Shown here: in pieces, positions 4,928 through 34,273 of the stretch
Position numbering within the stretch: the stretch's first letter is position 1
Layout of the letters: every line of letters starts with the position of its first letter
Assembly: GCA_964515735.1 (NCBI GenBank)
Contig: CAZEVP010000008.1
Span: forward strand, 7,945 to 71,944
Source of the DNA: an uncultured Verrucomicrobiaceae bacterium
Lineage (GTDB): Bacteria > Pseudomonadota > Gammaproteobacteria > Pseudomonadales > CAMLJR01
Length of the DNA: 64,000 nucleotides
Reading direction: 5' to 3'
Position numbers and translations under genes: made by a program
The notes under the pieces: generated by a model
Told to the model about the DNA's origin: nothing
Seen by the model: the letters and a program-made list of their open reading frames with translations, nothing else
Database searches by the model: none

Positions 4928-5551
4928 CTACCTCATCAGATAGAGCAGTGCAAAGATGAACACCCAGATCAGGTCGACCATGTGCCAGTAGGTAGCGCCG
5001 GTCTCGACCGACTCGACCAGATGATTGGTCGGCCTGATCAGGTTGAAGTAGACGTAGGTCAGCACCACCAGACCGACGACCATGTGCAGCATGTGATACG
5101 CGGTGATGTAGTAGTAATAGGTGAAGTACAGGCTGTGCATCAGCGTGAATCCCTCGCGGATCGCCAGCGTCCACTCGACCGACTTCGACACCATGAACGA
5201 CACGCCGAACAGTACCGCCAGCATCAGGCAGCGTTTGGCCCCGCCCAGATCGCCGAGGCGGGTGCAGCGAACGCAGCGTGCGATGAACCACGAGCTGGTC
5301 AGCAGCAGTATCGTGTTGAAGATTCCGAAACCCTGACTCTGGTGCGCCTGCGCCGCCAGGAACTCCTCCGGATTCCTGGCCCGGAACAGCATGTAGGAGA
5401 TCAGATAACAGCTGAAGACACAGGCATCGAAGATGATGAAGTACCACATGTCCCGCTGACCGGGACCGAAACCGTGCTCGCTCCCCTCTTCCTGCCTGAT
5501 CAGATCATCGATCGTCTGCGTACTCGACATGGTCGTCTCTCGCGAATTCAT
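4928..5551 (-). CDS. Heme-copper oxidase subunit III family protein (CyoC/NorE-like)
   Basis: 207 aa, polytopic, with a subunit III-like C-terminus (..YYYITAYHMLHMVVGLVVL..TGATYWHMVDLIWVFIFALLYL). A start at M8 is also possible. Confidence 0.8.
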   Translation of the reverse strand: MNSRETTMSSTQTIDDLIRQEEGSEHGFGPGQRDMWYFIIFDACVFSCYLISYMLFRARNPEEFLAAQAHQSQGFGIFNTILLLTSSWFIARCVRCTRLGDLGGAKRCLMLAVLFGVSFMVSKSVEWTLAIREGFTLMHSLYFTYYYYITAYHMLHMVVGLVVLTYVYFNLIRPTNHLVESVETGATYWHMVDLIWVFIFALLYLMR

Positions 5552-5570
5552 TTCGGCCCCGTTCGGCCGC

Positions 5571-6344
5571 TCACTTCTTTGCCAGCGCCGGCAGCACGCC
5601 CGCCCCCAGGTCTTCCCGTTCGATCATCTGCCTGAGCAGTTTGATGAACGCTCCGGTGTAGACCGCGAACACCACGAAGGCGATCCAGAACGCCGTCAAT
5701 CCGTTCCACGCGAACGGTCCCTCATGGGTGAACCACAGCGTCACGATCACGAACTCGGTGAAGGCGTTGCACAGACAGAAATAGCCGAACCACTTCGGAA
5801 ACACCTTGTTGCGATCGACGAGGACGGCGGTCATCCAGACCAGCGAACCGATCAGGAAGATGCCCATCGTTCCCTGGAACGAGAGAATGCCCATGTCGTA
5901 CAGCATCATCATCAGCTCGGGGTCACGATCGAGGCGCATCGCACCGACCGCAAAGATCAGCGCGGCCAGCAGCATCCCCGGAAACGTCGCGGTTGAGTAG
6001 ATCACGATGTAGGCGTAACCGAAGGCGCGGCTGACCGACATCCGCCGCATCGAATAACCGATCAGGCCATTCTGAAAAGCCGTCAGCCCCGCCGACACGA
6101 AGCAGAGCGCGAAACCGTACTGGATACCGGTCTGGTGAGTAGTGAACCACTCGACGATCTGCCCGGCGTTCCACCACGGCTTCGGCGGCGGCTGGGTGCG
6201 GGTCAGCACGAAGAATACGAGGGTGTACAGCTGGTAGAAGGAGACCGTGGTGATCCACGCCAGCATCAGCTCCTTTCTGCCGCGCTTGACGGCCTCGGGA
6301 CTCGCCTCCCCTCCCTCTCGCAGCGAGATCGGCTGCGCGGTCAT
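5571..6344 (-). CDS. Polytopic membrane protein of unknown family (paralog A)
   Basis: 257 aa with multiple hydrophobic spans. It shares motifs with the upstream paralog (DRNKVFPKWFGYF / EGPFAWNGLTAFWI). Its ATG overlaps the paralog B stop (ATGA). Confidence 0.6.
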   Translation of the reverse strand: MTAQPISLREGGEASPEAVKRGRKELMLAWITTVSFYQLYTLVFFVLTRTQPPPKPWWNAGQIVEWFTTHQTGIQYGFALCFVSAGLTAFQNGLIGYSMRRMSVSRAFGYAYIVIYSTATFPGMLLAALIFAVGAMRLDRDPELMMMLYDMGILSFQGTMGIFLIGSLVWMTAVLVDRNKVFPKWFGYFCLCNAFTEFVIVTLWFTHEGPFAWNGLTAFWIAFVVFAVYTGAFIKLLRQMIEREDLGAGVLPALAKK

Positions 6345-7072
6345 GACGCCACCCCCACCTCACGGCGCTGCCGGCAGATGGCCGCGGCGACGACGCAGCC
6401 GGTCACCAGAACCCACAACCCGGTTGCTCCGTTCTTGATCCAGAACGGGAACAGGCCATCCCACGACAGCGGCCCCTCGAAGCCGTTGACGCCGGCGAAG
6501 CTGGCCGGCGCCAGCGCGATGACGATCGCGATGTTGAAATGCGCGAACCAGGTCGGAAAGATCCTGTTCTTCTGATCATCGAAATAGACCGCAATCGCGA
6601 GAATCAGCGACTGCGCGATCATGAAGCCACCCTGCACGGTGAACGACATCCAGGCCATGTCGTTCAGCAGCTGCGTCAGCGCCGGGCTGCGATCGGGCCG
6701 GAACGCAGCCAGCAGCCAGAACAGGTCCGCCGTGAAGAACAGGACCGGGCTGCCGCAGATACAGGCGAGAAAACAGTAGGCGAAGATGGCGCTGCGATGC
6801 GCCATGCGCTTTATCTGCACCATCACCAGCGCCAGCAACGGAATGATGCCGTAGCTGAACCAGTTCAGCAGGATCATGCTCCAGCGAGTGCGCGAGAGAT
6901 TGTCCGGGTCGCGATAGAACGCCGCCACCTCATCGGCGCTCAGCGCCGGTGACATCGGGCTGGTGAACCCCGGAAACATCATGATCGAGACCACCCAGAT
7001 CAGCAGCACGAACGGAAACGACCACAGCAGCAGCAACTCTCCGTCTCGCATTCTCACGGCGTGTGTGGACAT
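6341..7072 (-). CDS. Polytopic membrane protein of unknown family (paralog B)
   Basis: 243 aa from the internal ATG at 7072 (MSTHAVRMRDGELLLLWSF..). Contains motifs DQKNRIFPTWFAHF / EGPLSWDGLFPFWI. The longer track ORF to 7207 would run into the TonB-receptor 3' end. Confidence 0.6.
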   Translation of the reverse strand: MSTHAVRMRDGELLLLWSFPFVLLIWVVSIMMFPGFTSPMSPALSADEVAAFYRDPDNLSRTRWSMILLNWFSYGIIPLLALVMVQIKRMAHRSAIFAYCFLACICGSPVLFFTADLFWLLAAFRPDRSPALTQLLNDMAWMSFTVQGGFMIAQSLILAIAVYFDDQKNRIFPTWFAHFNIAIVIALAPASFAGVNGFEGPLSWDGLFPFWIKNGATGLWVLVTGCVVAAAICRQRREVGVAS

Positions 7073-7170
7073 CAGCTTGCCTCTCCTCTTGCAAAAAAAT
7101 GGGCAATGCCCGACGGCACTGCCCGAACTCCGATATTTCGCAACATCAGAGGGGAACCACGAACGGATCG

Positions 7171-9690
7171 CTATCCGCCAAAGTTGTAACGCACCTTCGC
7201 GCCCCACATCTTCGGCAGGCCGACCTGACGGGTCTCGAAGCCGAGGTTGTGGTAGGCACCGGAAACGTAGGTCGTGTACTTCTCGTCCAGCGCGTTGGTC
7301 ATGAACAGCCCCGCATCGAAGCGACTGCCGAAGATGCCGTTCCAGTTGACGTTGAGATTGAGCAGGCTGTAGGAGTCGAGAGTCGCGTAGGGCGAGCCGG
7401 CGAGACGACCATTGCCATCCACGTACTCCGGCGCGGTACTGTTCTGCTCATCGGTGTAGCTGTAGGTGCCGCCGATGTGAACGTCGCCGACCTCCACCGG
7501 CAACGGCAGCCGGTAGCGCAGGCCCGCGACCACGCTATGCATCGGCGAGAAGGTGAGGTCGTCGCCCGGCCGCGAGGTCGGAGAGAGCGAAACGCCGGCC
7601 GGAGCGACCGGGTCGACCATCTCCTTCAGTTCCGTATCCAGGTAGGTATACGAAACATTCAGCATCAGGTCTTCGAGCAGCATCAGCGAGGTCTCGACCT
7701 CGAACCCCTGAATGACCGACGTACCCGCGTTGACGATCGCTGTGGTCGACAGGCCGCCGGAGAGATAGCCGTACTGCAGCTGCTGATCCTGCAGATCGTT
7801 GTAGAAGACGGAGACGTTGAAGGTGCCGGGCACCGGACCGCCGAACGTGGTCTTGGCGCCGAGCTCGTAGGCATCGACGTGTTCGGGATTGAACTCGCGG
7901 AATCCATCGCCGCCGAACACATTGACACTGCCCATCCGGTAGCCGCGCGCATATTTCGCGTACAGCATCACGTCCTGCGTCAGGAAGTAATCGACATCGA
8001 TCAGGCCGGTGACCGCCTCGCTGGTCTGGTCCACGTTGTCCTTGCAGCCGTTGGCGAGAGTGGCGCCATTGCCGCTGTAGAGACACTGGGTGTTGCCGGC
8101 GACACTCGGCGTCGCCGGCGCGCCCAGGTAGGAATAGCCATTCCACATCTGCGAGCGCGACTGGCCGATGGCCTTGTCTCTCGTGTAACGCAGGCCTGCG
8201 GTCACCTTCCACTGATCGTTGATGTCGTAGGTCATCTCCGAGTAAATGGCGTTGTTGACGTACTCGACCTCTCCCTGCGTGCGCGTGATGGCGCCGTAAC
8301 CGTTGGGGCCGAACTGCGCGCCGATGATGTCGATGCCCAGGCTGTTGAGGAAATGGTTGCGCGGCACGTCGATACAAGTCGAGTTGGCCGGATTCGCCTG
8401 ATCGACGGACGAGCAGAACACCTGCCCGATGCTTTGCGAACCGGAAATGCCATCCGGCATGCTGTTTTCGAAATAGATCCCCGCCTGCCAGGTCAGGTCT
8501 CCATCCATCGCGTAACCCTGGAACTGCAGCTCTTCGACGAAACTCACCTGGCTGTTGGTTGGAACGCCCGGCGGAGAGTTGGACTCCACGAAGCCATAAC
8601 TGCCGATGCCGTAGTAGTCGTAGTTCATGCCATAGACGGCCGTCCGGTTGATCTGCTCCAGATCGGCATAGGCGACGATGTTCTTGATCGTCAGATCGTC
8701 GTGCACTTCCCACGTCGTCGTATTGATCAGCTGCCACTGCTTCTGCTCGCTGACCGGATTGGCCATCAGGCTTTCCAGCATGTAGAAATCGCGGCCCTGA
8801 TGCGCGAGCTGTGCCGGACATCCCATGTTGAACAGCGTCAGCCCCGGCTTGCAGTCGAACAGGCTGGAGGCGACGCCGGTATTCTCGGAATCGCTGTAGC
8901 TGAGAATCGTGTAGTTCTGCAGAGCATCCGACACCTCCCAGACGACGCTGGCGCGCGCGGCGACGTAATCGGTGTTGCCGAGTTCGCTCGGGCCGATACC
9001 GGAAACGTTGCGCAGGTGGCCGTCCCGTTTCATCGTGTCGACACCGAAACGGGCGCGCACGGTTTCGCTGATCGGCACGTTGATGACACCCTGAATGCGC
9101 TGCATGTCGTAATCGCCGGCGGCACCTTCGAGGTAGCCTTCGAGCTGGCTGGTCGGTTCCTGCGGCGTCAGCAGAATGGCGCCACCGGTGGTGTTGCGAC
9201 CGAACAGCGTGCCCTGCGGACCTTTCAGCACCAGCACGTTCTGCAGATCAAAGAACGAGCCGGGGCCGGCGCCATCGCCCGCCGTCACCGAACCACCGCC
9301 GCGCGGCGCCACCACTTCCGCGAAGTAGAAACCGACCGACGCCGTGGTGCGCAGCTCCTGCGTGAAGCCACGAATGGCGAAGGTCGCCTGATCCGGCCCG
9401 AAGCGGGGGTTGACCGCCAGCGACGGCGTGAACTGTTTCAGCTCGGCGGAGCTGAACACGTTGCTGTTGGCCATCGTCTGCTGATCGACCACGGTGATGG
9501 CGATCGGGATGTCCTGCGAACTCTCCTCCTGCCGCCGCGCCGACACGATGATCTCCTCCACCACCGCGCTCGACTGCCCCGAACCCTGCGCCAGCACCGG
9601 CGCCGACAGCCCAAGCCCGAGGGCTGCCGCCGGCCAGACCACGCTCCGGCAGGCATTCGTGATCCGCTTGTTGTTTATCTGCATCGTCAT
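7171..9690 (-). CDS. TonB-dependent outer-membrane receptor
   Basis: 839 aa with a signal peptide ending ..APVLAQG, a plug region (EEIIVSARRQEES.. IPIAITVV.. FAIRGF) and a long beta-barrel with alternating aromatic residues. Confidence 0.9.
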   Translation of the reverse strand: MTMQINNKRITNACRSVVWPAAALGLGLSAPVLAQGSGQSSAVVEEIIVSARRQEESSQDIPIAITVVDQQTMANSNVFSSAELKQFTPSLAVNPRFGPDQATFAIRGFTQELRTTASVGFYFAEVVAPRGGGSVTAGDGAGPGSFFDLQNVLVLKGPQGTLFGRNTTGGAILLTPQEPTSQLEGYLEGAAGDYDMQRIQGVINVPISETVRARFGVDTMKRDGHLRNVSGIGPSELGNTDYVAARASVVWEVSDALQNYTILSYSDSENTGVASSLFDCKPGLTLFNMGCPAQLAHQGRDFYMLESLMANPVSEQKQWQLINTTTWEVHDDLTIKNIVAYADLEQINRTAVYGMNYDYYGIGSYGFVESNSPPGVPTNSQVSFVEELQFQGYAMDGDLTWQAGIYFENSMPDGISGSQSIGQVFCSSVDQANPANSTCIDVPRNHFLNSLGIDIIGAQFGPNGYGAITRTQGEVEYVNNAIYSEMTYDINDQWKVTAGLRYTRDKAIGQSRSQMWNGYSYLGAPATPSVAGNTQCLYSGNGATLANGCKDNVDQTSEAVTGLIDVDYFLTQDVMLYAKYARGYRMGSVNVFGGDGFREFNPEHVDAYELGAKTTFGGPVPGTFNVSVFYNDLQDQQLQYGYLSGGLSTTAIVNAGTSVIQGFEVETSLMLLEDLMLNVSYTYLDTELKEMVDPVAPAGVSLSPTSRPGDDLTFSPMHSVVAGLRYRLPLPVEVGDVHIGGTYSYTDEQNSTAPEYVDGNGRLAGSPYATLDSYSLLNLNVNWNGIFGSRFDAGLFMTNALDEKYTTYVSGAYHNLGFETRQVGLPKMWGAKVRYNFGG

Positions 9691-9698
9691 TCCCCCAT

Positions 9699-9761
9699 GT
9701 TCTTATCGAAGAGGTTCTTATCCGAGAAAGCCTCATGCCGAAGAGGCTCTTATCGAAGTCG
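9699..9761. promoter_or_regulatory. Three direct repeats of TCTTATC(C)GA(A)G in the divergent receptor/AraC intergenic region (candidate operator)
   Basis: Cores at 9701-9711, 9716-9726 and 9748-9758. A longer 20-nt unit, CGAAGAGG(T/C)TCTTATC(C)GA(A)G, occurs at 9707-9726 and 9739-9758. Confidence 0.4.
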
Positions 9762-9954
9762 TTTCTGTCGACGCAAAAATTTACTGGCGACGGCCTTGTG
9801 GGGGATACGATGAAATCTGGCCGACAGGCTGCGGATTGGACATCGCAGCCGAATGCGCGGGTTGCCCGGTGTCGTTGACGCAACTCGCGGGTGTGGCGTA
9901 TTTTCCGGCGGCACCCCATCACGACAATGGCTGGTCCGCAGCCGGTTCCGCGCC

Positions 9955-10815
9955 ATGACATCCGCCATCGCCAAGGGTTCTATCGACATCGATGCCGAAG
10001 TCCGGTCGCAGCACGCGTGCATCCAGCTGGTTCGCTACCACTTTCTGGAGCCGCCCGAGAGCACGCTCTACGCCAGCGACAATTTCCGCATCGACCTCTG
10101 CCTGACGGCGCGGCACCGCAGCTCGCGCGCCAGTTTCATCGATCTCTGGAACCCTCGCCGCTTCGAGCGGATCGGCGACCTGTTCCTGTTGCCACCCGCC
10201 ATCGGCATCCGCGCTGGAAGTGACGAAAGCTCGTCGATCAGCTCGCTGGTCTGCCAGCTCGATGCCGGGTTCCTGCTCGCGCTGTTCGACGAACTGCCGG
10301 AAGTGAACGACCGGATGCTGACCGCGAGCCTGGACATCAAGGACGCGCGGGTGCGCAACCTGCTGCTGCGTCTGGCCGAGGAGGCGAGGCACCCCGGTTT
10401 CGCCAGCGCCCTGCTGATCGACTCGATCGTCACGCAGACCGCTATCGAACTGTTCCGGATCGGTGTCGGCGTGCGCGAACAACCCGACCAGGGCGGGCTC
10501 GCGCCGTGGCAGCTGCGCCAGATCGACGAGCGACTGAAGGAGATCAGGGAGTCGCCGACACTGGCCGAGATCGCCAGCATCTGCCGGATATCGGTGCGGC
10601 AACTGACACGGGGGTTTCGCGCCAACCGCGGCTGCTCGATCGGCACCTACGTGGCCAACAGCCAGATCGAACACGCCAAACAGATGCTCGACAGCGGCAA
10701 GAGCGTTTCCGCCATTGCGGAAATTCTGGGATTCTCGACGGCATCGAATTTCGGCGTCGCGTTCCGGCGCGCGACCGGGCTCACGCCCGGCCAGTACCGA
10801 CGTCGCATCATTTGA
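9955..10815 (+). CDS. AraC/XylS family transcriptional regulator
   Basis: C-terminal double HTH (..LAEIASICRISVRQLTRGFR.. SVSAIAEILGFSTASNFGVAFRRATGLTPGQYR). The start is taken at the internal ATG (MTSAIAKG..); the alternative is 9853. Confidence 0.85.
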   Translation: MTSAIAKGSIDIDAEVRSQHACIQLVRYHFLEPPESTLYASDNFRIDLCLTARHRSSRASFIDLWNPRRFERIGDLFLLPPAIGIRAGSDESSSISSLVCQLDAGFLLALFDELPEVNDRMLTASLDIKDARVRNLLLRLAEEARHPGFASALLIDSIVTQTAIELFRIGVGVREQPDQGGLAPWQLRQIDERLKEIRESPTLAEIASICRISVRQLTRGFRANRGCSIGTYVANSQIEHAKQMLDSGKSVSAIAEILGFSTASNFGVAFRRATGLTPGQYRRRII

Positions 10816-11202: not shown

Positions 11203-11754
11203 CTACGAGCAGCGAACCAGTTCCAGCGCATCCGGTTCATCGACATCCACCGCCAGCCCCTGACGTTCGATGACAGCGGCATGGGGCAGCAGTGCGCGAT
11301 GCGCGGCGAAACTTTCCACGCCGAACTTCGACACGAAGGGCTCCGCGCCGACCAGCGCCAGAGCATTGGTGCCGTGACCCGCGCGATCCGGCGCCAGCGC
11401 CGCACCACACCGTTCCGCCGCATCCAGTAACTCGGAGATTTCCGCAACATCGAGCAGCGGCAGGTCGGCGTGAATGAACAGCGTCGCTTCAGCAGCGAGT
11501 CGTTCGCGCGCGGCGGCCAGCTCTCCGTTCAAACCTCGACCGATATCCTCCAGCCACAATCCGTCGAAGAATGGCGGGCACTGTGGCGCGACGACGCAGA
11601 TACGTTCGATGGCCGGCACCCGCGCCAGCTGATCGAACACATGACACGCCATCCGCTCGACCAGCACATTGCGCTGCGCGGGCGTCAGGTGCCCGGAGAG
11701 CCGCGTCTTGCAGTCGCGCCCGTAATTGAGCGGAACGATCGCCGTCCACTTCAT
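11203..11754 (-). CDS. cofC: F420 biosynthesis guanylyltransferase (2-phospho-L-lactate/PEP/3PG guanylyltransferase)
   Basis: 183 aa with a CofC/FbiD-like N-terminus (MKWTAIVPLN.. KTRL) and ..LFIHADLPLL... Its start overlaps the cofD stop by 4 nt. Confidence 0.8.
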   Translation of the reverse strand: MKWTAIVPLNYGRDCKTRLSGHLTPAQRNVLVERMACHVFDQLARVPAIERICVVAPQCPPFFDGLWLEDIGRGLNGELAAARERLAAEATLFIHADLPLLDVAEISELLDAAERCGAALAPDRAGHGTNALALVGAEPFVSKFGVESFAAHRALLPHAAVIERQGLAVDVDEPDALELVRCS

Positions 11755-19858: not shown

Positions 19859-20872
19859 TCAGGCCAGACTTCTGACCCTCGGCAGGAAGCGCTTCACCGG
19901 CGGAGACAGGTGTCGCAATAGAACTGCCCTCGTCCGCCCCCACAGCGCGGACAACAGCAGCAACATCGAACCAATCAGAATCCCCGTGACGGCAAAACCC
20001 TCGCTGACCATGCCGTACATCTTGAACAGCTCCGAAAAAGCGTAGATCACATAGATCAATGCCGAGACCATCAGGGCCCGGCGATCGATCGCGATGGATA
20101 TGACGCCGAGAACCAGATAAACGGCAATGATCAGACATGCGCTCAACAGCGAGCTTTCCCCTTGAAAAACCTTCAGCGAAATAAATACCGGATGAACGAT
20201 CAGCGGTGCCGCCATCAGATGCAACCAGAACGCCACGTCTGACTTGCGGGTCTTCCTTTCGACATCCTGAGCATCCCAGTACATCGCGACAAGAAAGGTA
20301 AACACGCCGAAAGCGGCGAGAATGGCCACCCCATATCTGCCCGATCCCGGAACATAGGCGGCCAGCACGACGATCAGGAAAATCAAAAAGCTACCGACCC
20401 CCGCCGCAACCGTGATGGGAACCCTGAACTTCAGCCAGTGCAGCCACGCCGCGACAATTCCGAGAGCCGGCGCTATCAGCACCATCCTTTTCGAGTCGAC
20501 ATCGAGCGCGACAAGAGTCAGTACGGTGCCTCCCATGACGCTGCCGACAAAGGTGAAGAGAAACAGGATGGCAGGCAGGGCCAGCCGTCGTTTCGTCACG
20601 AAAAGGATCGACAACAGCCACGCCAGTGCCGCTGCAACCCAGAGGCCGACAGCCGGCTCGAACTTGCTCCCCAGCCACGCGGCTGAAATCAACAGCAGCA
20701 ATGCCGCTATCGACACGAAGATGTCATTGAAGCCGGAGATGAGCCGAAAGTTCTCTTCATCCACGGTGTTGGTGTTGCCGGACTCCTCCATGAACCGCCT
20801 GAAAGCATCGACGGCCCGCTCCTCAAGAACACCCACCTTTACAGCGGCATACAAATCTTCATCCGTATACAT
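19859..20872 (-). CDS. Polytopic membrane protein, unknown function
   Basis: 337 aa with a soluble N-terminal segment followed by about 9 hydrophobic spans. GC is visibly lower than the surrounding genes. Confidence 0.6.
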   Translation of the reverse strand: MYTDEDLYAAVKVGVLEERAVDAFRRFMEESGNTNTVDEENFRLISGFNDIFVSIAALLLLISAAWLGSKFEPAVGLWVAAALAWLLSILFVTKRRLALPAILFLFTFVGSVMGGTVLTLVALDVDSKRMVLIAPALGIVAAWLHWLKFRVPITVAAGVGSFLIFLIVVLAAYVPGSGRYGVAILAAFGVFTFLVAMYWDAQDVERKTRKSDVAFWLHLMAAPLIVHPVFISLKVFQGESSLLSACLIIAVYLVLGVISIAIDRRALMVSALIYVIYAFSELFKMYGMVSEGFAVTGILIGSMLLLLSALWGRTRAVLLRHLSPPVKRFLPRVRSLA

Positions 20873-20996
20873 CCTGCATCCTCAATATGCCGCGGAGCTT
20901 CCCAAGGAGTTGCCCCGACTGGCGCTCCATCGTTTATCGAGCCGCGCTCGTACCCCAACCAGCCCACCATGGCCAGCGGTCGACTCGACAAACGTC

Positions 20997-21056
20997 TCAA
21001 TCGATCACCACCAGATGGTCCGGCAGCTCGTTCTTCCGAGTGCAACCGTGCGGCAC
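20997..21056 (-). pseudogene. Relic of a TPM-domain gene 3' end (19 codons plus stop)
   Basis: Translates to VPHGCTRKNELPDHLVVID*, versus HVPATDQKNELPNHLVMLD* at the end of the intact gene 21608-22219. DNA identity is about 80% over about 40 nt. Confidence 0.4.
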
Positions 21057-29010: not shown

Positions 29011-29988
29011 ATGAAGCCGTCGATGCAGCCGATCATCATCAAGAAGAAGAAGGTCCACGGCCACGGCCACCACGGCGGTGCGTGGAAGGTGGCCTACGCC
29101 GACTTCGTCACCGCGATGATGGCGTTCTTCCTGCTGCTATGGCTGCTCGGCAACACCACCGAGGAGGAGCAGCAGGCCATCTCCGGCTACTTCCAGGATC
29201 CCGGCGGCGGCCTGGTCGGTCCCGGTGGCGCCAACCAGGGCGTCATCCAGTTCCCGCACCCGCTGTCGCAGCCCAACCCGAACGAACTGCCGCCCCCGCC
29301 GCAGGTGAAGCCCGACGAAACCTCCGGCGGCGACAACCTGATGGAAGAGGCGCCGGTCGATTCGATCACGCCGATCGAACTCTCCGAACAGGAACTGCGC
29401 GACCGGCTCGAACAGCTGGAGATGGAGCAGCTCGAACAGCTGAAGGAGCAGATCGAGGAGGAGCTGAACAACGCCGAATCGGCGCTGCAGGAGCTGAAGG
29501 ACCAGATACTGCTCGACCACACCGAGATGGGGCTGCGCATCCAGATCGTCGACAAGGAGAAGCGGCCGATGTTCGACCTCGGCAGCCCGTCGCTGAAGCC
29601 CTACACCGCCGACGTGCTGATGGCGATGGCGCCGCTGATCGACAGCGTGCCGAACCGCATCTCGATCACCGGCCACACCGACGCCGTCAGCTTCGGCGCC
29701 GCCTCGCTCTACACCAACTGGGAGCTGTCGGCCGACCGTGCCAACACCGCGCGCCGCGCGCTGCTCGACGGCGGCTACCCCGAGACGAAGATACTGACCG
29801 TGCAGGGCATGGGCGACGGCGCGCCATTCAACGCCGATAACCCGAACGACGCGGCCAACCGCCGCATCGCCATCATCGTGCTGAAGAAATCGATCGAGAA
29901 CGCACTACTGGGCCACAAGGGCACCACCAGCGGCAAGGTGATCAAGTCGGAAGGGAAGATTCTGGAGCCGGTCAGGGGTGGGCGTTGA
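29011..29988 (+). CDS. motB: Flagellar motor protein MotB (OmpA-like C-terminus)
   Basis: 325 aa with the N-terminal plug/transmembrane segment (GGAWKVAYADFVTAMMAFFLLLWLL) and a C-terminal OmpA-like domain (ISITGHTD.. NWELSADRANTARRAL.. NRRIAIIVL). Confidence 0.9.
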   Translation: MKPSMQPIIIKKKKVHGHGHHGGAWKVAYADFVTAMMAFFLLLWLLGNTTEEEQQAISGYFQDPGGGLVGPGGANQGVIQFPHPLSQPNPNELPPPPQVKPDETSGGDNLMEEAPVDSITPIELSEQELRDRLEQLEMEQLEQLKEQIEEELNNAESALQELKDQILLDHTEMGLRIQIVDKEKRPMFDLGSPSLKPYTADVLMAMAPLIDSVPNRISITGHTDAVSFGAASLYTNWELSADRANTARRALLDGGYPETKILTVQGMGDGAPFNADNPNDAANRRIAIIVLKKSIENALLGHKGTTSGKVIKSEGKILEPVRGGR

Positions 29989-32745
29989 TGTGCTACGCAA
30001 ACTAATGCGTCCGCATCAACAGCTAAAAATCCAAAGCAGACCGACAAGCCTGCATCAATGCTTATTGTGCAGATGCGCGTTATCACCAAACAGTTAGGTA
30101 CACCTACGCAGCATCGAATTTCAAAATTTTCAATTAGAACCCCAGATAATTCTAACAGGATGAAAAAATGAGCGGATTCATAGAGCGCCAATCAAGACTT
30201 CGTCAACTAGTTGATGATCTAGGATTTGAGAATCGTGGGGAGGTTTCAATTCCGGCGCGTAATCCGCAGTTCTTGGAAATCCCTAGCACACTTCATCCAG
30301 CCGTACGCAATGAGCTTCAACTGCGACTCCCAGATGGAATGTATGGACATCAGGCCAAGGCAATTAGAGCCTCGCTAGATGGGGCTGACGTATGTGTCGC
30401 AACCCCAACGGCGTCTGGAAAAAGCTTGATTTTCATGTCGGTATCGGCCCATACACTCAAGGCCGACCCAGACGCAAAAGTTCTTGCGCTATACCCTGCC
30501 AGAGCCTTAATACAAGACCAATTTTCGAAATGGCAATCCCTCCTATCCCCCATGGGGCTAAAGTGCGTACAAATTGATGGCGGCATTCCAGTAAATAAAC
30601 GAGCGGACATCTTACGATCTGGCCGCCTAGTTTTAATGACACCGGACGTTGCACATGCTTGGATGATGAGCCGATTACACGAAAAATCAATAAAAGAGTT
30701 TCTTTCCTCTATTAAAATCGTAGTGCTGGACGAAGCCCACGTTTACGACGGGGTATTTGGAACAAATATGGCGTACTTCATTCGGCGCCTGCAAGCTGTA
30801 ACCCGAGTGGATAGATTCATCACGAGCACTGCGACAATTGGCGATCCAGAAAAATTTATTGAAAATTTAGTTGGGAGGCGCCCAATTGTATTTGGACCAC
30901 CAGATGATCAAGGGCCATCGCCAGATAAGTGGCTAGTTATGGCGAAACCAGGCGGGGGTGATCCATTCGAAAAGACTGTTTCCCTACTTAAAGCTGTCGC
31001 AGATACAGGACTCGGACGATTTATAGCGTTTGCTGATTCGCGAAGAATGGTTGAGCAATTGGTAGTGGTGGCCGAGCGAAAAGAAAGCGAACACGGCATT
31101 GTTGAAGCTGACACTGACGAATCCGAAACTGAGCCAGATGATCAGCCGACAGGATATGGCAGAATCCTTCCATATCGGGCCGGATACGAGGACGAAGATA
31201 GAACTCAAATTCAACGGGCACTTACGGATGGAAAGCTTTCGGGAGTTGTTTCAACAAGCGCAATGGAGCTGGGAATTGATATAGGCGAAATTGACACTGT
31301 CCTGTTATTAAGCACGCCTCCGACAATGAAGTCATTTTGGCAAAGATTTGGTCGTGCTGGCAGAAAAAATCCAGGCTACTGTATTTTTGTTGACACTCGC
31401 GAAGCCATTAGTAACAAAGAAGAAAACCCACTGAATGAATATTTAAGGAAACCCGTAGAACCGGCTTGGCTCTACTTAGACAATCCATACTTGCAATACT
31501 CCCAAGCACTCTGCGCAGCACAGGAGTACGCTGAGTACGGGGACATTCATTACGATCGTTTTCCACTACGCTCGCTACCAGAACAGTTCATGCAGTACTT
31601 GGAAAATGAGATAAATCCAGTGCAAGGCATACCAGACGATTTATACCCCTTGAAACAGAGGGCACAGTCTGGAGCACATTATGAGTTTCCTATTCGAAGC
31701 GGGATAGAGAAGAACTTTTCCGTGAAACTGAAAGGGTCTTCTGGAGAGCATCGCCTCGGTACGCTAACCATGGCACAAGCAATGCGAGAAGGATATCCAG
31801 GCGCAATTTACTATTACATGGCAAAGCCATTTAGGGTAGTTTCATTCAACTATAGGGCCGCAGAAATATCCGTTACAAAAACGAAACGCTGGACAACACG
31901 AGCAGACTCTCGCTGCATGGTCTTTCCAAAATTCCCAAGCGGCGTAATCCTTTCAAAGAAATCCAACATAGGCTTTCTAGTTGAAGCCGGAATGCAGATT
32001 AGTGAGCGAGTAACAGGATTCATAGAGAAAAGAGGAAGAATGCAAACTCCTCACACCTATGATCACGAATCACCCCATTCGCAAAAGCCCATCACGCGAT
32101 ACTTTGAGACAACGGGTGTTTGTTGGTACTTCCCAGAAAAAGAACTTGTTTCTGACTCCGTAGCCGCAAGGCTACACGAGGCATTTTGCATTCTGTGTGG
32201 GGTTCAGCAAAGAGATATTGGGTATGGAATGTTCCATAGCAGGCCATCTGTATATTGGCAGAGTGAATGTCAAGGAATGAGCATTTATGACAATGTTCAT
32301 GGAAGTCTCCGTCTCACCAAGCAGCTTCATGAGCGATTCTCTGACGTCGTAGATCTAGCTATATCTTTAGCGATTGAGCGTGAAAGCCATCAGGTGCCAC
32401 CTGTCATTGAGGCATTAAGGCGCTTAAAGCATCTTTCTTTGGAATGTGAGTTCAATGACGCCGAAGAGACGATCAGCATTAGCTCAGAAGATGATGACTG
32501 GATCGCTGTCATTGATGACGACCAAAACGCGGTGCACGTTGAAAATAGTGAAGAGGTTAAGGTCATATCGCACCGCTTTACCCCCCAAGGGCTGATGTAT
32601 GAATTGGTTTCAAATCGACCGGGGGTGCGGTGGCTGGCAAAGACAGCATTGGTCAGGCCAATTCCAGGAATTACCAAGATGATCCGAGTTAATTGGGTAA
32701 CCGGAGAAAAGGAACCCAGTTGATGGGGTGAAGTAAGGGACAGAC
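29989..32745. other. AT-rich, probably horizontally acquired insertion with no recognisable mobility gene
   Basis: Hand counts: 45% GC at 30181-30240 and 37% at 31381-31440, versus 70% at 29581-29640 in motB. The left edge is the motB stop. The right edge (about +/-20 nt) lies inside a truncated vapC-like gene. Confidence 0.6.
30168..32723 (+). CDS. SF2 DEAD/DEAH-box helicase of the MrfA/YprA/DruE (COG1205) type, with a degenerate DUF1998-like module and a novel acidic C-terminal extension
   Basis: 851 aa. Helicase motifs: YGHQAKAI, motif I ATPTASGKS, Ia ALYPARALIQDQ, II VLDEAHVYDGVFGTNMAYFIRRL, III STAT, V/VI VSTSAMELGIDIG .. WQRFGRAGR. COG1205-specific segments: YPGAIYYYMAKPFRVVSF and the DUF1998-like ..RDIGYG..SIYDNVHGSLRL. 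Confidence 0.9.
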   Translation: MSGFIERQSRLRQLVDDLGFENRGEVSIPARNPQFLEIPSTLHPAVRNELQLRLPDGMYGHQAKAIRASLDGADVCVATPTASGKSLIFMSVSAHTLKADPDAKVLALYPARALIQDQFSKWQSLLSPMGLKCVQIDGGIPVNKRADILRSGRLVLMTPDVAHAWMMSRLHEKSIKEFLSSIKIVVLDEAHVYDGVFGTNMAYFIRRLQAVTRVDRFITSTATIGDPEKFIENLVGRRPIVFGPPDDQGPSPDKWLVMAKPGGGDPFEKTVSLLKAVADTGLGRFIAFADSRRMVEQLVVVAERKESEHGIVEADTDESETEPDDQPTGYGRILPYRAGYEDEDRTQIQRALTDGKLSGVVSTSAMELGIDIGEIDTVLLLSTPPTMKSFWQRFGRAGRKNPGYCIFVDTREAISNKEENPLNEYLRKPVEPAWLYLDNPYLQYSQALCAAQEYAEYGDIHYDRFPLRSLPEQFMQYLENEINPVQGIPDDLYPLKQRAQSGAHYEFPIRSGIEKNFSVKLKGSSGEHRLGTLTMAQAMREGYPGAIYYYMAKPFRVVSFNYRAAEISVTKTKRWTTRADSRCMVFPKFPSGVILSKKSNIGFLVEAGMQISERVTGFIEKRGRMQTPHTYDHESPHSQKPITRYFETTGVCWYFPEKELVSDSVAARLHEAFCILCGVQQRDIGYGMFHSRPSVYWQSECQGMSIYDNVHGSLRLTKQLHERFSDVVDLAISLAIERESHQVPPVIEALRRLKHLSLECEFNDAEETISISSEDDDWIAVIDDDQNAVHVENSEEVKVISHRFTPQGLMYELVSNRPGVRWLAKTALVRPIPGITKMIRVNWVTGEKEPS

Positions 32746-32799
32746 CACGTTTTCCCGAATCAGAATGTTTGCGTCCAGCACGATGGCCTTGTCGATCAC
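32689..32799 (-). pseudogene. Truncated VapC-like PIN-domain toxin gene (only about the first 17 codons look native)
   Basis: The GTG at 32799 overlaps the antitoxin stop (GTGA). Translation is V/M-IDKAIVLDANILIREN.. (a PIN N-terminal LD-x-N-hydrophobic motif), then drifts into AT-rich sequence and stops after 36 codons. Confidence 0.5.
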
Positions 32800-33056
32800 C
32801 GGGCCTCACCTTTCCGACGAGCCCGTTTGAAGTCGGCCACCACTGCCTCGGTATCCACCTCATGGCGGGCAAGTAGCTCATCCAGCGCCTGGCTGGCCTG
32901 CCTCAAGGCCGCCAGCTCGGCCTCGTTCTGGCCACGGGCGGGGATGAAGTACCCCACGGTCTGGCCATGGCGGGTGATCGCCACCGGCGTGCTGGACTCG
33001 ATGTACTCCGCCAGGCTGGCGCGGAACTCGCGGATGCCGACTTTCGCTGCCTCCAT
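32796..33056 (-). CDS. Phd/YefM-type type II antitoxin (orphan)
   Basis: 86 aa from the internal ATG (MEAAKVGIREFRASLAEYIESSTPVAITRHGQTVGYFIP..). High GC, unlike the adjacent helicase gene. Confidence 0.75.
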   Translation of the reverse strand: MEAAKVGIREFRASLAEYIESSTPVAITRHGQTVGYFIPARGQNEAELAALRQASQALDELLARHEVDTEAVVADFKRARRKGEAR

Positions 33057-33080
33057 AATGGGAACCCTCAAATGCGTATC

Positions 33081-33094
33081 AATGTGTACACATT
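33081..33094. promoter_or_regulatory. Perfect 14-bp palindrome AATGTGTACACATT upstream of the antitoxin (candidate autoregulatory operator)
   Basis: The sequence is its own reverse complement. It lies 25-38 nt upstream of the antitoxin ATG at 33056. Confidence 0.5.
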
Positions 33095-33178
33095 TTAGCG
33101 AGCAGCAACCCATAAGACAATCCAGCAGTACCCGGTGTGTTTGACGCTTCAGCCCCAACCATCCCGGGTAGTTGCAGA

Positions 33179-34273
33179 TCAGCCCGCCAGCGCCTCACCC
33201 AACGCCGCGATCAGCTGATCGCTCTGCTCCGGCGTGCCGACCGTCAGCCGCAGGCAGTCCTTCAGCAGCGCGTGGCTGCCATCCAGACACTTGATCAGGA
33301 TGTTGCGGGTTTTCAGGAACTCGAAGATCTCGCGCGCGCGCCCTTCCGGCGTGCGCACCAGCACGAAGTTGGCCTCGCTCGGCCACAGCTGCAGCGCCGG
33401 CAGCGAGCGCAGCTCGGAGATCAGCCGCTCGCGCTCGGCGCGGATCAGCGCGGTCTGCTGGCGCATCACCTGGAAATTGTCGAGCGCGAAACGCGTCGAC
33501 AGCTGCGTCAGCACGTTGATGTTGTACGGCATCCGCACCTTGTCGACCTCCGCCAGCCAGGCGGCGTCGCCGATCAGCAGGCCGAGCCGCAGCCCCGCCA
33601 GCCCGACCTTCGACAGCGTGCGCATGACCAGCACGTTGTCGTAGTCCTGCACGAAACCGAGATGGTCGGCATCGGTGAAGACGGTGTAGGCCTCGTCGAG
33701 CACCACCAGCCCTTCGGCCGCCTCGATCACCGCGCGCACGCGGTCGACCGAGAACAGATTGCCGGTCGGGTTGTTCGGCAGCGCCAGGAAGATCAGCGCC
33801 GGCTGGTGCTGCTGGATCGCCGCCAGCATGGCGTCGAGGTCGAGATCGAAGTTGGCGTCGAGCGGCACGCCGATGTAATCCATCGCCGTGAAGGTGGCGA
33901 TCATCCGGTACATGACGAAGCCCGGCTCCGGCGCCAGCACGCAGCGGCCACGGCCGGCGACCAGCAGCGCCAGCATCTGGATGATCTCGTCGGAACCGTT
34001 GCCGAGCAGCAGATCGAAGCCGGCCGGCACCCCCATCTCACGACGCAGACCGTCGCGAACCTCCGGTGCCTGCGGATCGGGATAGCGGTTCAGTTGCGCG
34101 CCCTGCAGCAGCTGCAACCACTCGCCGACCATCTCGTCGGGCCAACCGTAGGGGTTCTCCATCGCGTCGAGCTTGACCATGCCGGTCGCCGGCGGCACGT
34201 GGTAGGCGTGCAGCGCGCGGATCTCGGGGCGAACCCACTGCTGGATACGGGCGGCGATACGGTCACTGCTCAC
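33179..34273 (-). CDS. hisC: Histidinol-phosphate aminotransferase
   Basis: 364 aa (..[14 protein letters not shown].. VVLDEAY.. [15 protein letters not shown]). Confidence 0.9.

What the first reader, a model, noticed from the sequence alone, without database searches (positions are those of the whole stretch)
29989..32745. AT-rich 2.8-kb insertion carrying a lone, atypical MrfA/YprA/DruE-type helicase: candidate single-gene defence or otherwise undescribed system
Composition: immediately after the motB stop (29988), GC collapses. My hand counts give 45% at 30181-30240 and 37% at 31381-31440, against 70% at 29581-29640. GC recovers around 32745-32800.
Content: the only credible gene in the island is one 851-aa protein.
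What the helicase resembles: its core is unmistakably the COG1205 family. The motifs are YGHQAKAI, ATPTASGKS, ALYPARALIQDQ, DEAHVYDGVFGTNMAYFIRRL, STAT, YRAGY..DR, ELGIDIG and QRFGRAGR, plus the family-specific YPGAIYYYMAKPFRVVSF segment.
How it deviates from the family: (i) an acidic insert (ERKESEHGIVEADTDESETEPDDQPTGYG) sits between RecA2 motifs. (ii) The DUF1998/MZB-like module is degenerate (..RDIGYG..SIYDNVHGSLRL..) and lacks the four-Cys zinc cluster that normally follows it. (iii) That cluster is replaced by a ~110-aa acidic-then-basic C-terminal extension (..SSEDDDWIAVIDDDQNAVHVENSEE..RVNWVTGEKEPS) that I cannot assign to a family.
Missing partners: relatives of this family work in phage defence with partners (DruE in Druantia, DrmA/DrmB in DISARM) or in repair with a partner exonuclease (MrfA/MrfB). 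None of those partner genes is present in the island or anywhere in the window.
Why it is interesting: a foreign-composition, partner-less helicase dropped into a toxin-antitoxin locus in the middle of core genes is the profile of an uncharacterised standalone immunity gene.
Basis: partly seen in the sequence, partly recalled or inferred. Interest (0 to 1): 0.8.

Follow-up and report, generated by a model that had tools for sequence, protein, structure and literature searches.

The report
Lone zinc-less YprA helicase gene island
A single foreign, AT-rich gene for an unusual MrfA/YprA-type DNA helicase has been dropped into a hypervariable spot between two core genes. Its relatives often sit among phage-defence genes, so it is a credible but untested candidate for a stand-alone immunity gene.

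Summary
A 2.76-kb block (29989 to about 32752) has 46.6% GC against 67.5% in the rest of the window, and it carries one intact 851-aa ORF (30168-32723).

The protein is an MrfA/YprA-fold SF2 helicase. They define a widespread, strongly conserved clade found in many phyla:
- an acidic disordered insert in RecA2;
- loss of the four-Cys zinc site;
- an extra C-terminal 75-aa beta-barrel, found only in this clade.

The motB-hisC interval is a hotspot. The closest sister genome carries a Fic/SoFic-like gene there, and another carries toxin-antitoxin pairs. Here the insertion cut a PIN toxin gene after about 16 codons and left an orphan antitoxin.

No partner gene is conserved across 21 loci of the clade and its more distant relatives. 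About half of the clade loci with enough flank lie beside restriction-modification, BREX/Pgl, Cas10 or Hma genes, and in one locus the helicase sits between HmaA and HmaB.

Weighing against defence: the sequence is closest to the repair helicases MrfA and SftH, there is no nuclease domain, and SftH-type helicases alone gave no phage defence in a published test.

Verdict: a new variant of a known helicase family and a plausible solo defence gene; function unproven.

The parts
29989..30167 (+). AT-rich (41% GC) leader of the inserted block. It begins directly after the motB stop codon and presumably holds the helicase promoter and RBS (AGGA 8 nt before the ATG).
   Evidence: Similarity to sister genome L011 stops exactly at 29988. 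GC is 0.413. Sequence read. No consensus sigma-70 site was found on the + strand.
30168..32723 (+). 851-aa YprA/MrfA-family SF2 helicase, the only gene of the island.
   Evidence: ORF. Pfam DEAD plus Helicase_C. TIGR03817 244.7 bits. MrfA 6znp 248 bits by profile and Foldseek E 2.2e-44, TM 0.76. AF2 model pLDDT 84.6. Identical gene in the same context on three independent metagenome contigs.
30348..30845 (+). RecA1 / DEAD domain (residues 61-226), with Walker A TPTASGKS and DEAH.
   Evidence: Pfam. T81, S83, G84, K85, S86, D188, E189 and H191 are invariant in 51 homologues.
31077..31160 (+). Acidic disordered insert in RecA2 (residues about 304-331).
   Evidence: pLDDT below 50 for residues 307-328. 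The insert is present at the same position in all 51 homologues, with median length 32 aa and median net charge -5. Selection is relaxed here (dN/dS 0.28, against 0.05 overall).
31161..31367 (+). RecA2 / Helicase_C core (residues 332-400), with motif VI QRFGRAGR.
   Evidence: Pfam. Q392, R393, G395, R396 and R399 are invariant.
31443..32450 (+). WH-OB-CON-MZB-like 'canopy' (residues about 426-761). The helix-coil-helix that carries the four Zn-binding Cys in MrfA has none here.
   Evidence: Foldseek aligns 803 columns with MrfA. MrfA domain map is from PMC7797055. MZB Pfam match is only E=0.03-0.08. All 51 homologues have 0-2 Cys in residues 709-775. Canonical YprA proteins found in the same metagenome scan carry CPCxxGCPSCxQSPKCGN.
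32499..32720 (+). C-terminal small beta-barrel module of about 75 aa (residues 778-851), joined by a disordered acidic linker (residues 767-775).
   Evidence: Modelled alone, pLDDT is 91.3 with 8 strands. The best fold matches are Tudor/chromo-like barrels, but E is 0.19 or worse. No Pfam or PDB sequence match. A profile search of 1.84 billion representatives gave 204 hits, and in nearly all of them the module lies at or near the C-terminus, either of 820-885-aa helicases or of shorter products that look like fragments of such helicases. dN/dS is 0.085.
32755..32799 (-). Stub of a PIN-domain toxin gene (V-IDKAIVLDANILIR, about 16 codons), cut off by the insertion.
   Evidence: Translation. The intact partner of a homologous antitoxin on plasmid NZ_CP097637 starts VTPRTIVLDANVLMRAV.
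32796..33056 (-). Phd/YefM-type antitoxin gene, now without its toxin.
   Evidence: Pfam PhdYeFM E 1.7e-4 on the longer ORF. 55-67% identical to annotated Phd/YefM antitoxins on plasmids. Translation.
29011..29988 (+). motB, the left core-gene flank of the hotspot.
   Evidence: Pfam MotB_plug plus OmpA. Collinear with L011 and L012 up to its stop codon.
33179..34273 (-). hisC-type aminotransferase, the right core-gene flank of the hotspot.
   Evidence: Pfam Aminotran_1_2. Collinearity with L011 and L012 resumes at 33183/33184.

Best explanation
The block 29989 to about 32752 is a horizontally acquired, single-gene cassette. It was inserted by recombination into the hypervariable motB-hisC hotspot of a high-GC gammaproteobacterium-like genome, and it destroyed a resident PIN toxin gene in the process.

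What the gene encodes (shown): an intact member of a distinct, widespread clade of YprA/MrfA-family SF2 helicases. The clade keeps the whole MrfA architecture (NTR, RecA1, RecA2, WH, OB, CON, MZB-like). It has lost the four-Cys zinc site and gained an acidic disordered loop in RecA2 and a private C-terminal beta-barrel.

Biochemistry (inferred from the MrfA/SftH fold and the intact motifs): an ATP-driven 3'-to-5' single-stranded-DNA translocase/helicase.

Biological role (inferred from context only): a stand-alone accessory gene acting against invading or replicating foreign DNA, that is, a one-gene defence module.

Speculative steps:
- The helicase would load on ssDNA-containing phage or plasmid replication or recombination intermediates and unwind or strip them.
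- The C-terminal barrel would act as a docking or sensor module for a host or phage protein.
- The acidic loop would act as an autoinhibitory DNA mimic, like the DrmA trigger loop.
For: Foreign origin and hotspot:
- GC is 0.466 against 0.675 for the rest of the window.
- Collinearity with sister genomes L011 and L012 breaks exactly at the motB stop codon and the hisC end. L011 holds a roughly 50% GC Fic gene there that hits SoFic/PDC-S04. L012 holds DUF4153 plus Xre and ParE/Phd toxin-antitoxin genes.
- A PIN toxin gene is truncated at the junction.
- The nearest homologue is in Accumulibacter: 83% aa and 77% nt identity, with similarity confined to the ORF. It too sits in a low-GC patch.

Functional gene:
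- All helicase motifs are invariant.
- dN/dS is 0.05.

Fold: MrfA, Foldseek E 2e-44.

Clade signature: shared by 51 of 51 homologues, and the C-terminal module is exclusive to the clade.

Solo: no conserved neighbour in 21 loci, no Rfam RNA in the island, and no SNF2, Hma or PglX homologue in the 64-kb window.

Defence context of homologues:
- L033: between HmaA and HmaB, with PDC-M28B/C next door.
- L031: Cas10 plus PglW.
- L029: type I restriction enzyme.
- L113: type I HsdR/HsdS plus AAA_13 plus toxin-antitoxin genes.
- L010: HsdM/HsdS plus an integrase.
- L009: DUF1156 methyltransferase.
- L032: PLD-SNF2 helicase.
- L008: STAND NTPase.
- L115 and L116: toxin-antitoxin genes.

Embedding within Hma systems was used successfully to find defence genes in 10.1101/2024.01.29.577857.
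Against: - There is no nuclease or other effector domain.
- By sequence the protein sits with the 'repair' side of the family: MrfA 248 bits and TIGR03817/SftH 245 bits, against DruE 76, DrmA 54 and DpdJ 56 bits. It also lacks the BrxA-like, Zn-module and MarR-like inserts that mark the defence branch in 10.1101/2025.09.15.676423.
- That census treats 'YprA only' genes without conserved context as repair or housekeeping genes.
- Some homologues have host-like GC and metabolic neighbours (L114).
- SftH and its M. tuberculosis homologue gave no phage protection alone and worked only with DruH (PMC13316683).
- No PADLOC model matches beyond the helicase core.
- No member was found in phages.
- The defence-context tally comes from about 14 loci without a formal background control.
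Confidence: 0.45

Rival explanations
1. It is an accessory DNA-repair or genome-maintenance helicase of the MrfA/SftH ('YprA only') type that moves by horizontal transfer. It lands in the same hotspots as defence genes only because those are the places where foreign DNA integrates.
For: - The closest characterised relatives are repair helicases: MrfA fold E 2e-44, and TIGR03817 and MrfA at about 245 bits.
- The domain order is the same as in MrfA.
- There is no effector domain.
- Host-GC copies sit among metabolic genes (L114).
- The YprA census assigns context-free YprA genes to repair.
- C-terminal Tudor-like domains tether the repair helicases PcrA/UvrD to RNA polymerase (PMC5397179). The fold match here is weak.
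Against: - MrfA works with the MrfB exonuclease, and no such neighbour, or any conserved neighbour, exists.
- The distribution is patchy, with foreign GC in several hosts.
- Different cargo occupies the same site in sister strains.
- RM, BREX, Cas or Hma genes recur beside homologues, and one homologue lies between HmaA and HmaB.
Confidence: 0.3
2. It is the helicase component of a multi-gene system of the DISARM/ARMADA/Hma/Druantia kind (YprA helicase plus SNF2 helicase plus methyltransferase, or plus a DruH-like sensor). Its partners are encoded elsewhere in this genome or have been lost, so the copy in this window is incomplete on its own.
For: - In L033 the helicase lies between an SNF2 helicase (HmaA) and a DUF1156 methylase (HmaB). 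Its stop codon overlaps the HmaB start.
- The more distant Cys-less relative in L043 sits beside a PglX-like methylase and an HmaA-like SNF2 helicase.
- L009 and L032 have a DUF1156 methylase or a PLD-SNF2 helicase nearby.
- SftH-type helicases can serve a separately encoded DruH.
Against: - Only about 4 of 21 loci show such neighbours, and no neighbour family is conserved.
- No SNF2, Hma or PglX homologue lies in the 64-kb window.
- The unit shared between this window and Accumulibacter is exactly the ORF.
- The gene is under strong purifying selection as a solo gene.
Confidence: 0.2
3. It is a decaying or non-functional remnant: a degenerate DUF1998 helicase that has lost its zinc site.
For: The Pfam MZB match is below threshold and the four Cys are missing.
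Against: - The ORF is intact and all ATPase motifs are invariant.
- The Cys-less state is shared by the whole clade and by a wider superclade.
- dN/dS is 0.05, including 0.043 over the canopy and 0.085 over the C-terminal barrel.
- The structure model is confident.
Confidence: 0.03

Closest known systems
MrfA/YprA of Bacillus subtilis (PDB 6ZNP; DUF1998 helicase, mitomycin repair factor A)
   Same: Same overall fold and domain order (NTR, RecA1, RecA2, WH, OB, CON, MZB). Foldseek E 2.2e-44, TM 0.76 over 803 columns. Profile match of 248 bits over residues 10-567.
   Different: - 22% identity.
- No four-Cys Zn site.
- An acidic disordered insert replaces an ordered helix in RecA2.
- About 90 extra C-terminal residues form a beta-barrel.
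- No MrfB exonuclease partner.
- Lies on a foreign-GC island.
SftH / TIGR03817 clade (Mycobacterium smegmatis MSMEG_6160; 3'-5' ssDNA translocase/helicase)
   Same: Best NCBIfam hit, 244.7 bits over residues 27-621. Monomeric, with no fused nuclease. No obligatory operon partner.
   Different: The score is far below the family cut-off (874). SftH keeps the DUF1998 Cys cluster and is a host-GC chromosomal gene. Alone it gave no phage defence.
DruE (Druantia), DrmA/DrmB (DISARM), DpdJ (Dpd), ArmC (ARMADA): the defence branch of the YprA family
   Same: Same helicase family. Dpd has also lost the four-Cys cluster. DrmA also has an acidic loop (the 'trigger loop'). The link to SNF2 helicases and methylases seen in L033 and L043 recalls DISARM and ARMADA.
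   Different: - Those proteins are roughly 1,000-2,100 aa (the PADLOC/NCBIfam models that hit here span 1,095-2,055 positions) and are described as carrying BrxA-like, Zn-module, MarR-like and often nuclease domains.
- They always have conserved partners.
- PADLOC matches here cover only the helicase core or motif VI, at 54-76 bits.
Hma-embedded candidates (HEC/PDC) of Payne et al. (10.1101/2024.01.29.577857)
   Same: One homologue (L033, 47% identity) lies between HmaA and HmaB, the situation those authors used to predict defence genes.
   Different: None of HEC-01 to HEC-09 is a helicase. No PDC model appears among the 25 PADLOC hits displayed for this protein, out of 63 matched. The copy in this window is not in an Hma system.

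Membership tests
YprA/MrfA (COG1205, DUF1998) helicase family | SF2 DEAD/DEAH-box core with intact motifs I, II, III and VI | tested here: met
   Pfam DEAD 2e-27 and Helicase_C 3e-14. GKS, DEAH, TAT and QRxGRxGR are invariant in 51 homologues.
YprA/MrfA (COG1205, DUF1998) helicase family | N-terminal strand plus the WH-OB-CON-MZB canopy following RecA2 | tested here: met
   The AF2 model (pLDDT 84.6) superposes on MrfA 6znp over 803 columns, TM 0.76. HMM similarity runs to residue 567-621.
YprA/MrfA (COG1205, DUF1998) helicase family | Four-cysteine Zn-binding signature of DUF1998/MZB | tested here: not met
   There are 0-2 Cys in residues 709-775 in all 51 clade members and no 4-Cys cluster anywhere. 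Canonical YprA proteins from the same scan have CPCxxGCPSCxQSPKCGN. Pfam MZB scores 14 bits against a cut-off of 24.2.
YprA/MrfA (COG1205, DUF1998) helicase family | 3'-to-5' ssDNA-dependent ATPase/helicase activity | not testable with these tools
   Inferred only from the fold and the motifs.
MrfAB repair module | Adjacent or fused MrfB/YprB exonuclease | tested here: not met
   The island has no second gene. No neighbour family is shared among 21 loci. MrfB itself was not searched for elsewhere in the genome.
Druantia (DruE) | Very large DruE with BrxA-like, Zn-module and MarR-like inserts, plus DruH or DruA-D partners | tested here: not met
   The protein is 851 aa. DruE models match only about 40 residues around motif VI, at 76 bits or less. 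No partner is present.
DISARM / ARMADA | YprA-like helicase in an operon with an SNF2 helicase (DrmD/BrxHII-like) and a methyltransferase (and DrmB/DrmC) | tested here: not met
   No SNF2, Hma or PglX homologue was found in the window by tblastn. DrmA scores 54 bits on the core only. Such neighbours occur only in L033, L043, L009 and L032.
Dpd (DpdJ) | DpdJ of about 1,480 aa within a 7-deazaguanine dpd cluster | tested here: not met
   DpdJ scores 56 bits over about 60 residues. There is no dpd gene in the island.
Defence-island gene (guilt by association or embedding) | Homologues preferentially next to, or embedded in, known defence systems | tested here: inconclusive
   About 7 of 14 clade loci with usable flanks have RM, BREX/Pgl, Cas10, Hma or PLD-helicase genes within 10 kb, and one lies between HmaA and HmaB. 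Others have only toxin-antitoxin genes or metabolic genes. No background control was run.
Type II toxin-antitoxin pair Phd/YefM-PIN (the resident locus) | Antitoxin gene followed by an intact PIN toxin gene | tested here: not met
   The antitoxin is intact. Only about 16 toxin codons remain.

The most novel reading that the evidence does not exclude
A helicase with no nuclease domain, no zinc site and no partner gene is by itself an immune system. It would be a stand-alone YprA-family translocase that recognises foreign replication or recombination intermediates. Its private C-terminal barrel would act as sensor or docking module and its acidic loop as an autoinhibitory DNA mimic. It would stop invaders by unwinding or stripping them, or by handing them to host nucleases. 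That would make the 'YprA only' side of the family partly immune rather than purely repair.
Probability: 0.3. Interest if true: 0.7.

Novelty: new variant of a known kind. Interest (0 to 1): 0.52.

Why it matters
YprA-family helicases are the engine of DISARM, Druantia, Dpd and ARMADA. In all of these the helicase works with partners and usually with a nuclease.

The 2025 census of the family sets aside partner-less 'YprA only' genes as repair or housekeeping genes. This locus points to a well-defined, widespread, solo clade that behaves like mobile accessory cargo and keeps company with defence systems. The clade is marked by the lost Zn site, the acidic loop and a private C-terminal barrel.

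If it protects cells on its own, it would be a minimal model for how this helicase family discriminates foreign DNA, without the complications of multi-protein systems. If it turns out to be a repair gene, it shows that repair helicases circulate through defence hotspots. That is a useful caution for guilt-by-association screens.

A cultured source exists for experiments: Thermomicrobium roseum WP_012642891.1.

Tried and rejected
- Signs of a mobile element at the borders. No flanking direct or inverted repeats, no tRNA in the window, and no integrase or transposase ORF in the island.
- A non-coding partner. The Rfam E-value scan of 29500-33400 gave only a chance snoRNA hit at E 0.27.
- Promoter and terminator scan. 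Counts were no higher than in shuffles, and no + strand promoter appeared upstream of the helicase.
- A conserved partner gene. All-against-all BLAST of neighbours in 21 loci found none.
- A named defence family. PADLOC gave only helicase-core matches: BrxHI 113 bits, SngC 98, DruE 76.
- Phage or viral homologues. IMG/VR gave only 26-30% identical canonical YprA-like genes. INPHARED gave none. BFVD gave only generic SF2 cores.
- Identity of the C-terminal module. No Pfam or PDB sequence match. Foldseek gave Tudor/chromo-like barrels only at E 0.19 or worse. I therefore use 'Tudor-like' as a shape description, not a family assignment.
- Whether the YprA census (10.1101/2025.09.15.676423) already lists clade members. 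Accession look-ups in the held supplements found nothing, but Table S1 was cut when stored, so this is inconclusive.
- The pseudogene or degeneration reading. Rejected on conservation and dN/dS.


Full report

Yes. A sliding-window profile shows GC of 0.65-0.72 on both sides and 0.45-0.49 between about 29990 and 32750.

Across the whole 64-kb window the lowest 2556-bp GC value, 0.463, lies on the island. The rest of the window averages 0.675 with sd 0.031 and never drops below 0.602. No other anomaly of this size exists.

The only long ORF in the block is 30168-32723 on the + strand, 851 aa. The helicase gene has GC3 of 0.43 in a genome of about 0.68 overall GC.

**2. Borders and the site**

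A scan of species-representative genomes with MotB found two close relatives. L011 has 97% MotB identity and L012 has 85%.

BLASTN shows collinearity with both. It stops exactly at the motB stop codon (29988) and resumes at the 3' end of the hisC-type aminotransferase gene (33183/33184). The interval between these two core genes is therefore replaced wholesale between relatives:
- In L011 it is 2 kb and carries a roughly 50% GC Fic-domain gene that matches the SoFic and PDC-S04 defence models.
- In L012 it is 5.1 kb. It carries a DUF4153 membrane protein, an Xre/MbcA-type antitoxin, a ParE/Phd pair and a 111-bp duplicate of the motB 3' end.
- In the window it carries the AT-rich helicase block plus a GC-richer (0.61) remnant of a toxin-antitoxin locus.

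That remnant is an intact Phd/YefM-type antitoxin gene (32796-33056, minus strand). It is followed by only about 16 codons, VIDKAIVLDANILIR, of its PIN toxin gene. Homologous antitoxins on plasmids are followed by PIN genes. One intact PIN begins VTPRTIVLDANVLMRAV.

The toxin similarity ends at about 32755, roughly 30 bp beyond the helicase stop codon. The inserted DNA is thus about 29989-32752: a 179-bp AT-rich leader plus one gene. I found no flanking repeats, tRNA, integrase or Rfam RNA. Exchange by recombination at a hotspot is the simplest reading; this is an inference.

The identical gene in the identical context is present on three independent metagenome contigs, so it is not an assembly chimera.

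**3. What the protein is**

Sequence evidence:
- Pfam finds DEAD (residues 61-226) and Helicase_C (332-400). MZB/DUF1998 reaches only E=0.08.
- The best NCBIfam model is TIGR03817, the SftH-type 'DECH helicase'. It scores 244.7 bits over residues 27-621, far below its 874-bit cut-off.
- A profile of the family hits B. subtilis YprA/MrfA (6ZNP) with 248 bits over residues 10-567.

Structure evidence:
- An AlphaFold2 model built on 51 homologues is confident (pLDDT 84.6).
- Foldseek places it on MrfA with E 2.2e-44 and TM 0.76 over 803 columns. Every other hit is a generic SF2 core.

The domain order of MrfA is NTR, RecA1, RecA2, WH, OB, CON, MZB (PMC7797055), and it is kept here. By contrast, the PADLOC models of the defence-branch relatives match only the helicase core: BrxHI 113 bits, SngC 98, DruE 76, DpdJ 56 and DrmA 54.

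**4. The 'deviations' are a clade signature**

A protein search returned many full-length (98-99% coverage) homologues of 830-915 aa at 45-53% identity. They come from Proteobacteria, Acidobacteria, Verrucomicrobia, Chloroflexi, Eisenbacteria and others. The nearest is 83% identical and comes from Accumulibacter.

In an alignment of 51 of them, three features hold throughout:
- The acidic insert sits at the same place in RecA2 in every sequence. Its median length is 32 aa and its median net charge is -5. It is disordered in the model (residues 307-328).
- The helix-coil-helix that carries the four Zn-binding cysteines in MrfA has 0-2 Cys in all 51. Canonical YprA proteins recovered in the same metagenome scan show CPCxxGCPSCxQSPKCGN.
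- The C-terminal roughly 75 residues are conserved (W778, G808, W822, N842, T845, G846).

Modelled alone, the C-terminal module is a confident eight-strand small barrel (pLDDT 91). Its best structural neighbours are Tudor/chromo-like barrels, but at non-significant E-values of 0.19 or worse. It has no Pfam or PDB sequence match.

A profile of the module was searched against 1.84 billion representative proteins. It found 204 hits, and in nearly all of them the module lies at or near the C-terminus: the full-length hits are 820-885-aa helicases, and I read the shorter hits as fragments of such helicases. The module is therefore essentially private to this clade (two repeat proteins are the exception, see section 10).

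More distant Cys-less helicases (30-34% identity, 860-980 aa) carry a divergent version of the module. The loss of Zn and the gain of the barrel are therefore old.

Between the window gene and the Accumulibacter gene, dN/dS is 0.05 overall. It is 0.043 over the canopy, 0.085 over the barrel and 0.28 over the acidic insert. This is a functional protein, not a decaying one.

**5. Solo or partnered?**

I collected 21 loci of the clade and its wider superclade. All neighbours within 6 kb were clustered by BLASTP. No neighbour family is shared beyond syntenic sister contigs. The only recurrent item is a large methyltransferase in three loci.

Between the window and Accumulibacter, nucleotide similarity starts at the ATG and ends 3 nt after the stop codon. 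The unit they share is thus the bare gene.

tblastn with the SNF2 helicases and methylases seen beside some homologues finds nothing in the 64-kb window. So the gene is solo here and in most places.

**6. Where homologues live**

Loci were chosen only for contig length. Their contexts are:
- L033: HmaA, then the helicase, then HmaB (with stop/start overlap), followed by PDC-M28B/C.
- L031: Cas10 upstream and PglW downstream.
- L029: a type I restriction enzyme.
- L113: type I HsdR/HsdS with an embedded AAA_13 ATPase, plus toxin-antitoxin genes.
- L010: HsdM/HsdS, a PD-(D/E)xK protein and an integrase.
- L009: a DUF1156 methyltransferase.
- L032: a PLD-SNF2 helicase.
- L008: a STAND NTPase.
- L115 and the T. 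roseum megaplasmid (L116): toxin-antitoxin genes.
- L001: unknown small genes.
- L114: only metabolic genes.

Roughly half of the informative loci therefore have bona fide defence genes within 10 kb. One is a textbook case of the 'embedding' that Payne et al. used to find new defence genes (10.1101/2024.01.29.577857). This is suggestive, but I had no background control.

GC is well below the flanks in four hosts: -0.21, -0.14, -0.10 and -0.10. It is host-like in the others, ranging from 0.34 to 0.72. The family thus combines long residence in some lineages with recent transfer in others. No member was found in phage or viral collections.

**7. How it most likely works**

Shown: an intact, conserved, MrfA-fold SF2 ATPase, encoded as a single foreign gene in a cargo hotspot.

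Inferred from family knowledge: 3'-to-5' translocation on ssDNA with duplex unwinding, as measured for MrfA and SftH (PMC7797055; PMC3424565, listed).

Inferred from context, at about 45% confidence: it acts against foreign DNA as a one-gene module.

Speculative:
- The C-terminal barrel docks a host or phage protein, much as the Tudor domain of PcrA/UvrD docks RNA polymerase (PMC5397179).
- The acidic loop masks the DNA channel until a proper substrate arrives, like the DrmA trigger loop mentioned in 10.1101/2025.09.15.676423.

Main rival, about 30%: an accessory repair helicase that simply shares integration hotspots with defence genes. This is favoured by its sequence affinity to MrfA/SftH and by the lack of any effector domain. 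It is also favoured by the census view that context-free YprA genes are repair genes, and by the finding that SftH and its M. tuberculosis homologue alone gave no phage protection (PMC13316683).

Second rival, about 20%: a component whose partners are elsewhere. Candidates are an SNF2 helicase plus a methylase, as in L033 and L043, or a DruH-like sensor.

**8. Comparison with what is known, and novelty**

It works like, and folds like, MrfA/SftH. It fails one defining feature of the DUF1998 family, the four-Cys Zn site, as Dpd helicases also do. It also lacks the inserts and partners that define DruE, DrmA, ArmC and DpdJ.

I found no paper describing this Cys-less, barrel-tailed solo clade. 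The supplements of the YprA census did not contain the accessions I tried, but the main table is truncated in the copy held.

I rate it a new variant of a known kind. It is not categorically new, because the engine is a known helicase family and solo 'YprA only' genes are acknowledged in the literature.

**9. Verdict**

The finding is a clean, well-delimited single-gene acquisition of a distinctive and apparently undescribed YprA-family clade, with a moderate contextual case for defence. It deserves a cloning test, but on present evidence it is not a surprise to a specialist. Interest is about 0.5.

**10. Seen in passing**

- The truncated PIN toxin and its orphan antitoxin.
- The Fic/SoFic-like alternative cargo in L011.
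- The 111-bp motB-end duplication in L012.
- Tandem YprA-like genes in L053.
- An ARMADA-like arrangement around the distant relative in L043.
- Two long proteins (P0249 and P0258) with 6-7 tandem repeats matching the central hairpin of the C-terminal module.
- Conflicting taxonomic labels of the related MAGs, Verrucomicrobiaceae versus Spongiibacteraceae.

Noticed in passing
window 32755-33056 (minus strand): A Phd/YefM-type antitoxin gene is intact, but its PIN toxin gene is cut after about 16 codons at the junction with the AT-rich insert. This leaves an orphan antitoxin.
   Followed up: yes
L011 8979-10954 (gene 9307-10782): In the closest sister genome (MotB 97% identical) the same motB-hisC interval holds a different low-GC cargo. 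It is a 491-aa Fic-domain protein that matches the PADLOC PDC-S04 and SoFic models.
   Followed up: partly
L012 8979-14095, repeat at 11334-11443: A third version of the hotspot carries DUF4153, an Xre/MbcA-type antitoxin and a ParE/Phd pair. It also has a 111-bp duplicate (88% identity) of the motB 3' end inside the island, which hints at successive insertions at the end of motB.
   Followed up: partly
L043 6174-18279: A distant Cys-less relative (32% identity, 896 aa) lies upstream of a 1227-aa unknown protein, a PglX-like methyltransferase and an HmaA-like SNF2 helicase. The arrangement is reminiscent of ARMADA/DISARM.
   Followed up: partly
L053 6174-8750 and 8760-11360: Two YprA-like helicase genes lie in tandem. 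The first has two separate four-Cys clusters.
   Followed up: no
proteins P0249 (1509 aa) and P0258 (567 aa): Two proteins outside the helicase clade match the central hairpin of the C-terminal barrel profile 6-7 times in tandem. This may be a repeat protein built from the same beta-hairpin.
   Followed up: no
L011, L012, L014-L016 versus L013, L017, L022, L027: MAGs with near-identical or similar motAB regions are labelled either 'Verrucomicrobiaceae' or 'Spongiibacteraceae'. At least one set of labels is probably wrong, so the taxonomy of the window's organism is uncertain.
   Followed up: no
L116 (Thermomicrobium roseum DSM 5159 megaplasmid NC_011961.1, 709748-712267): This is the only clade member found in a cultured, completely sequenced organism (WP_012642891.1, 44% identity). 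It is solo and sits near a MazE-like gene, which makes it a convenient source for experiments.
   Followed up: partly
window 5001-9000 and 20001-21000: Mild GC dips (0.57-0.63 against about 0.68) occur elsewhere in the window. I did not examine them.
   Followed up: no
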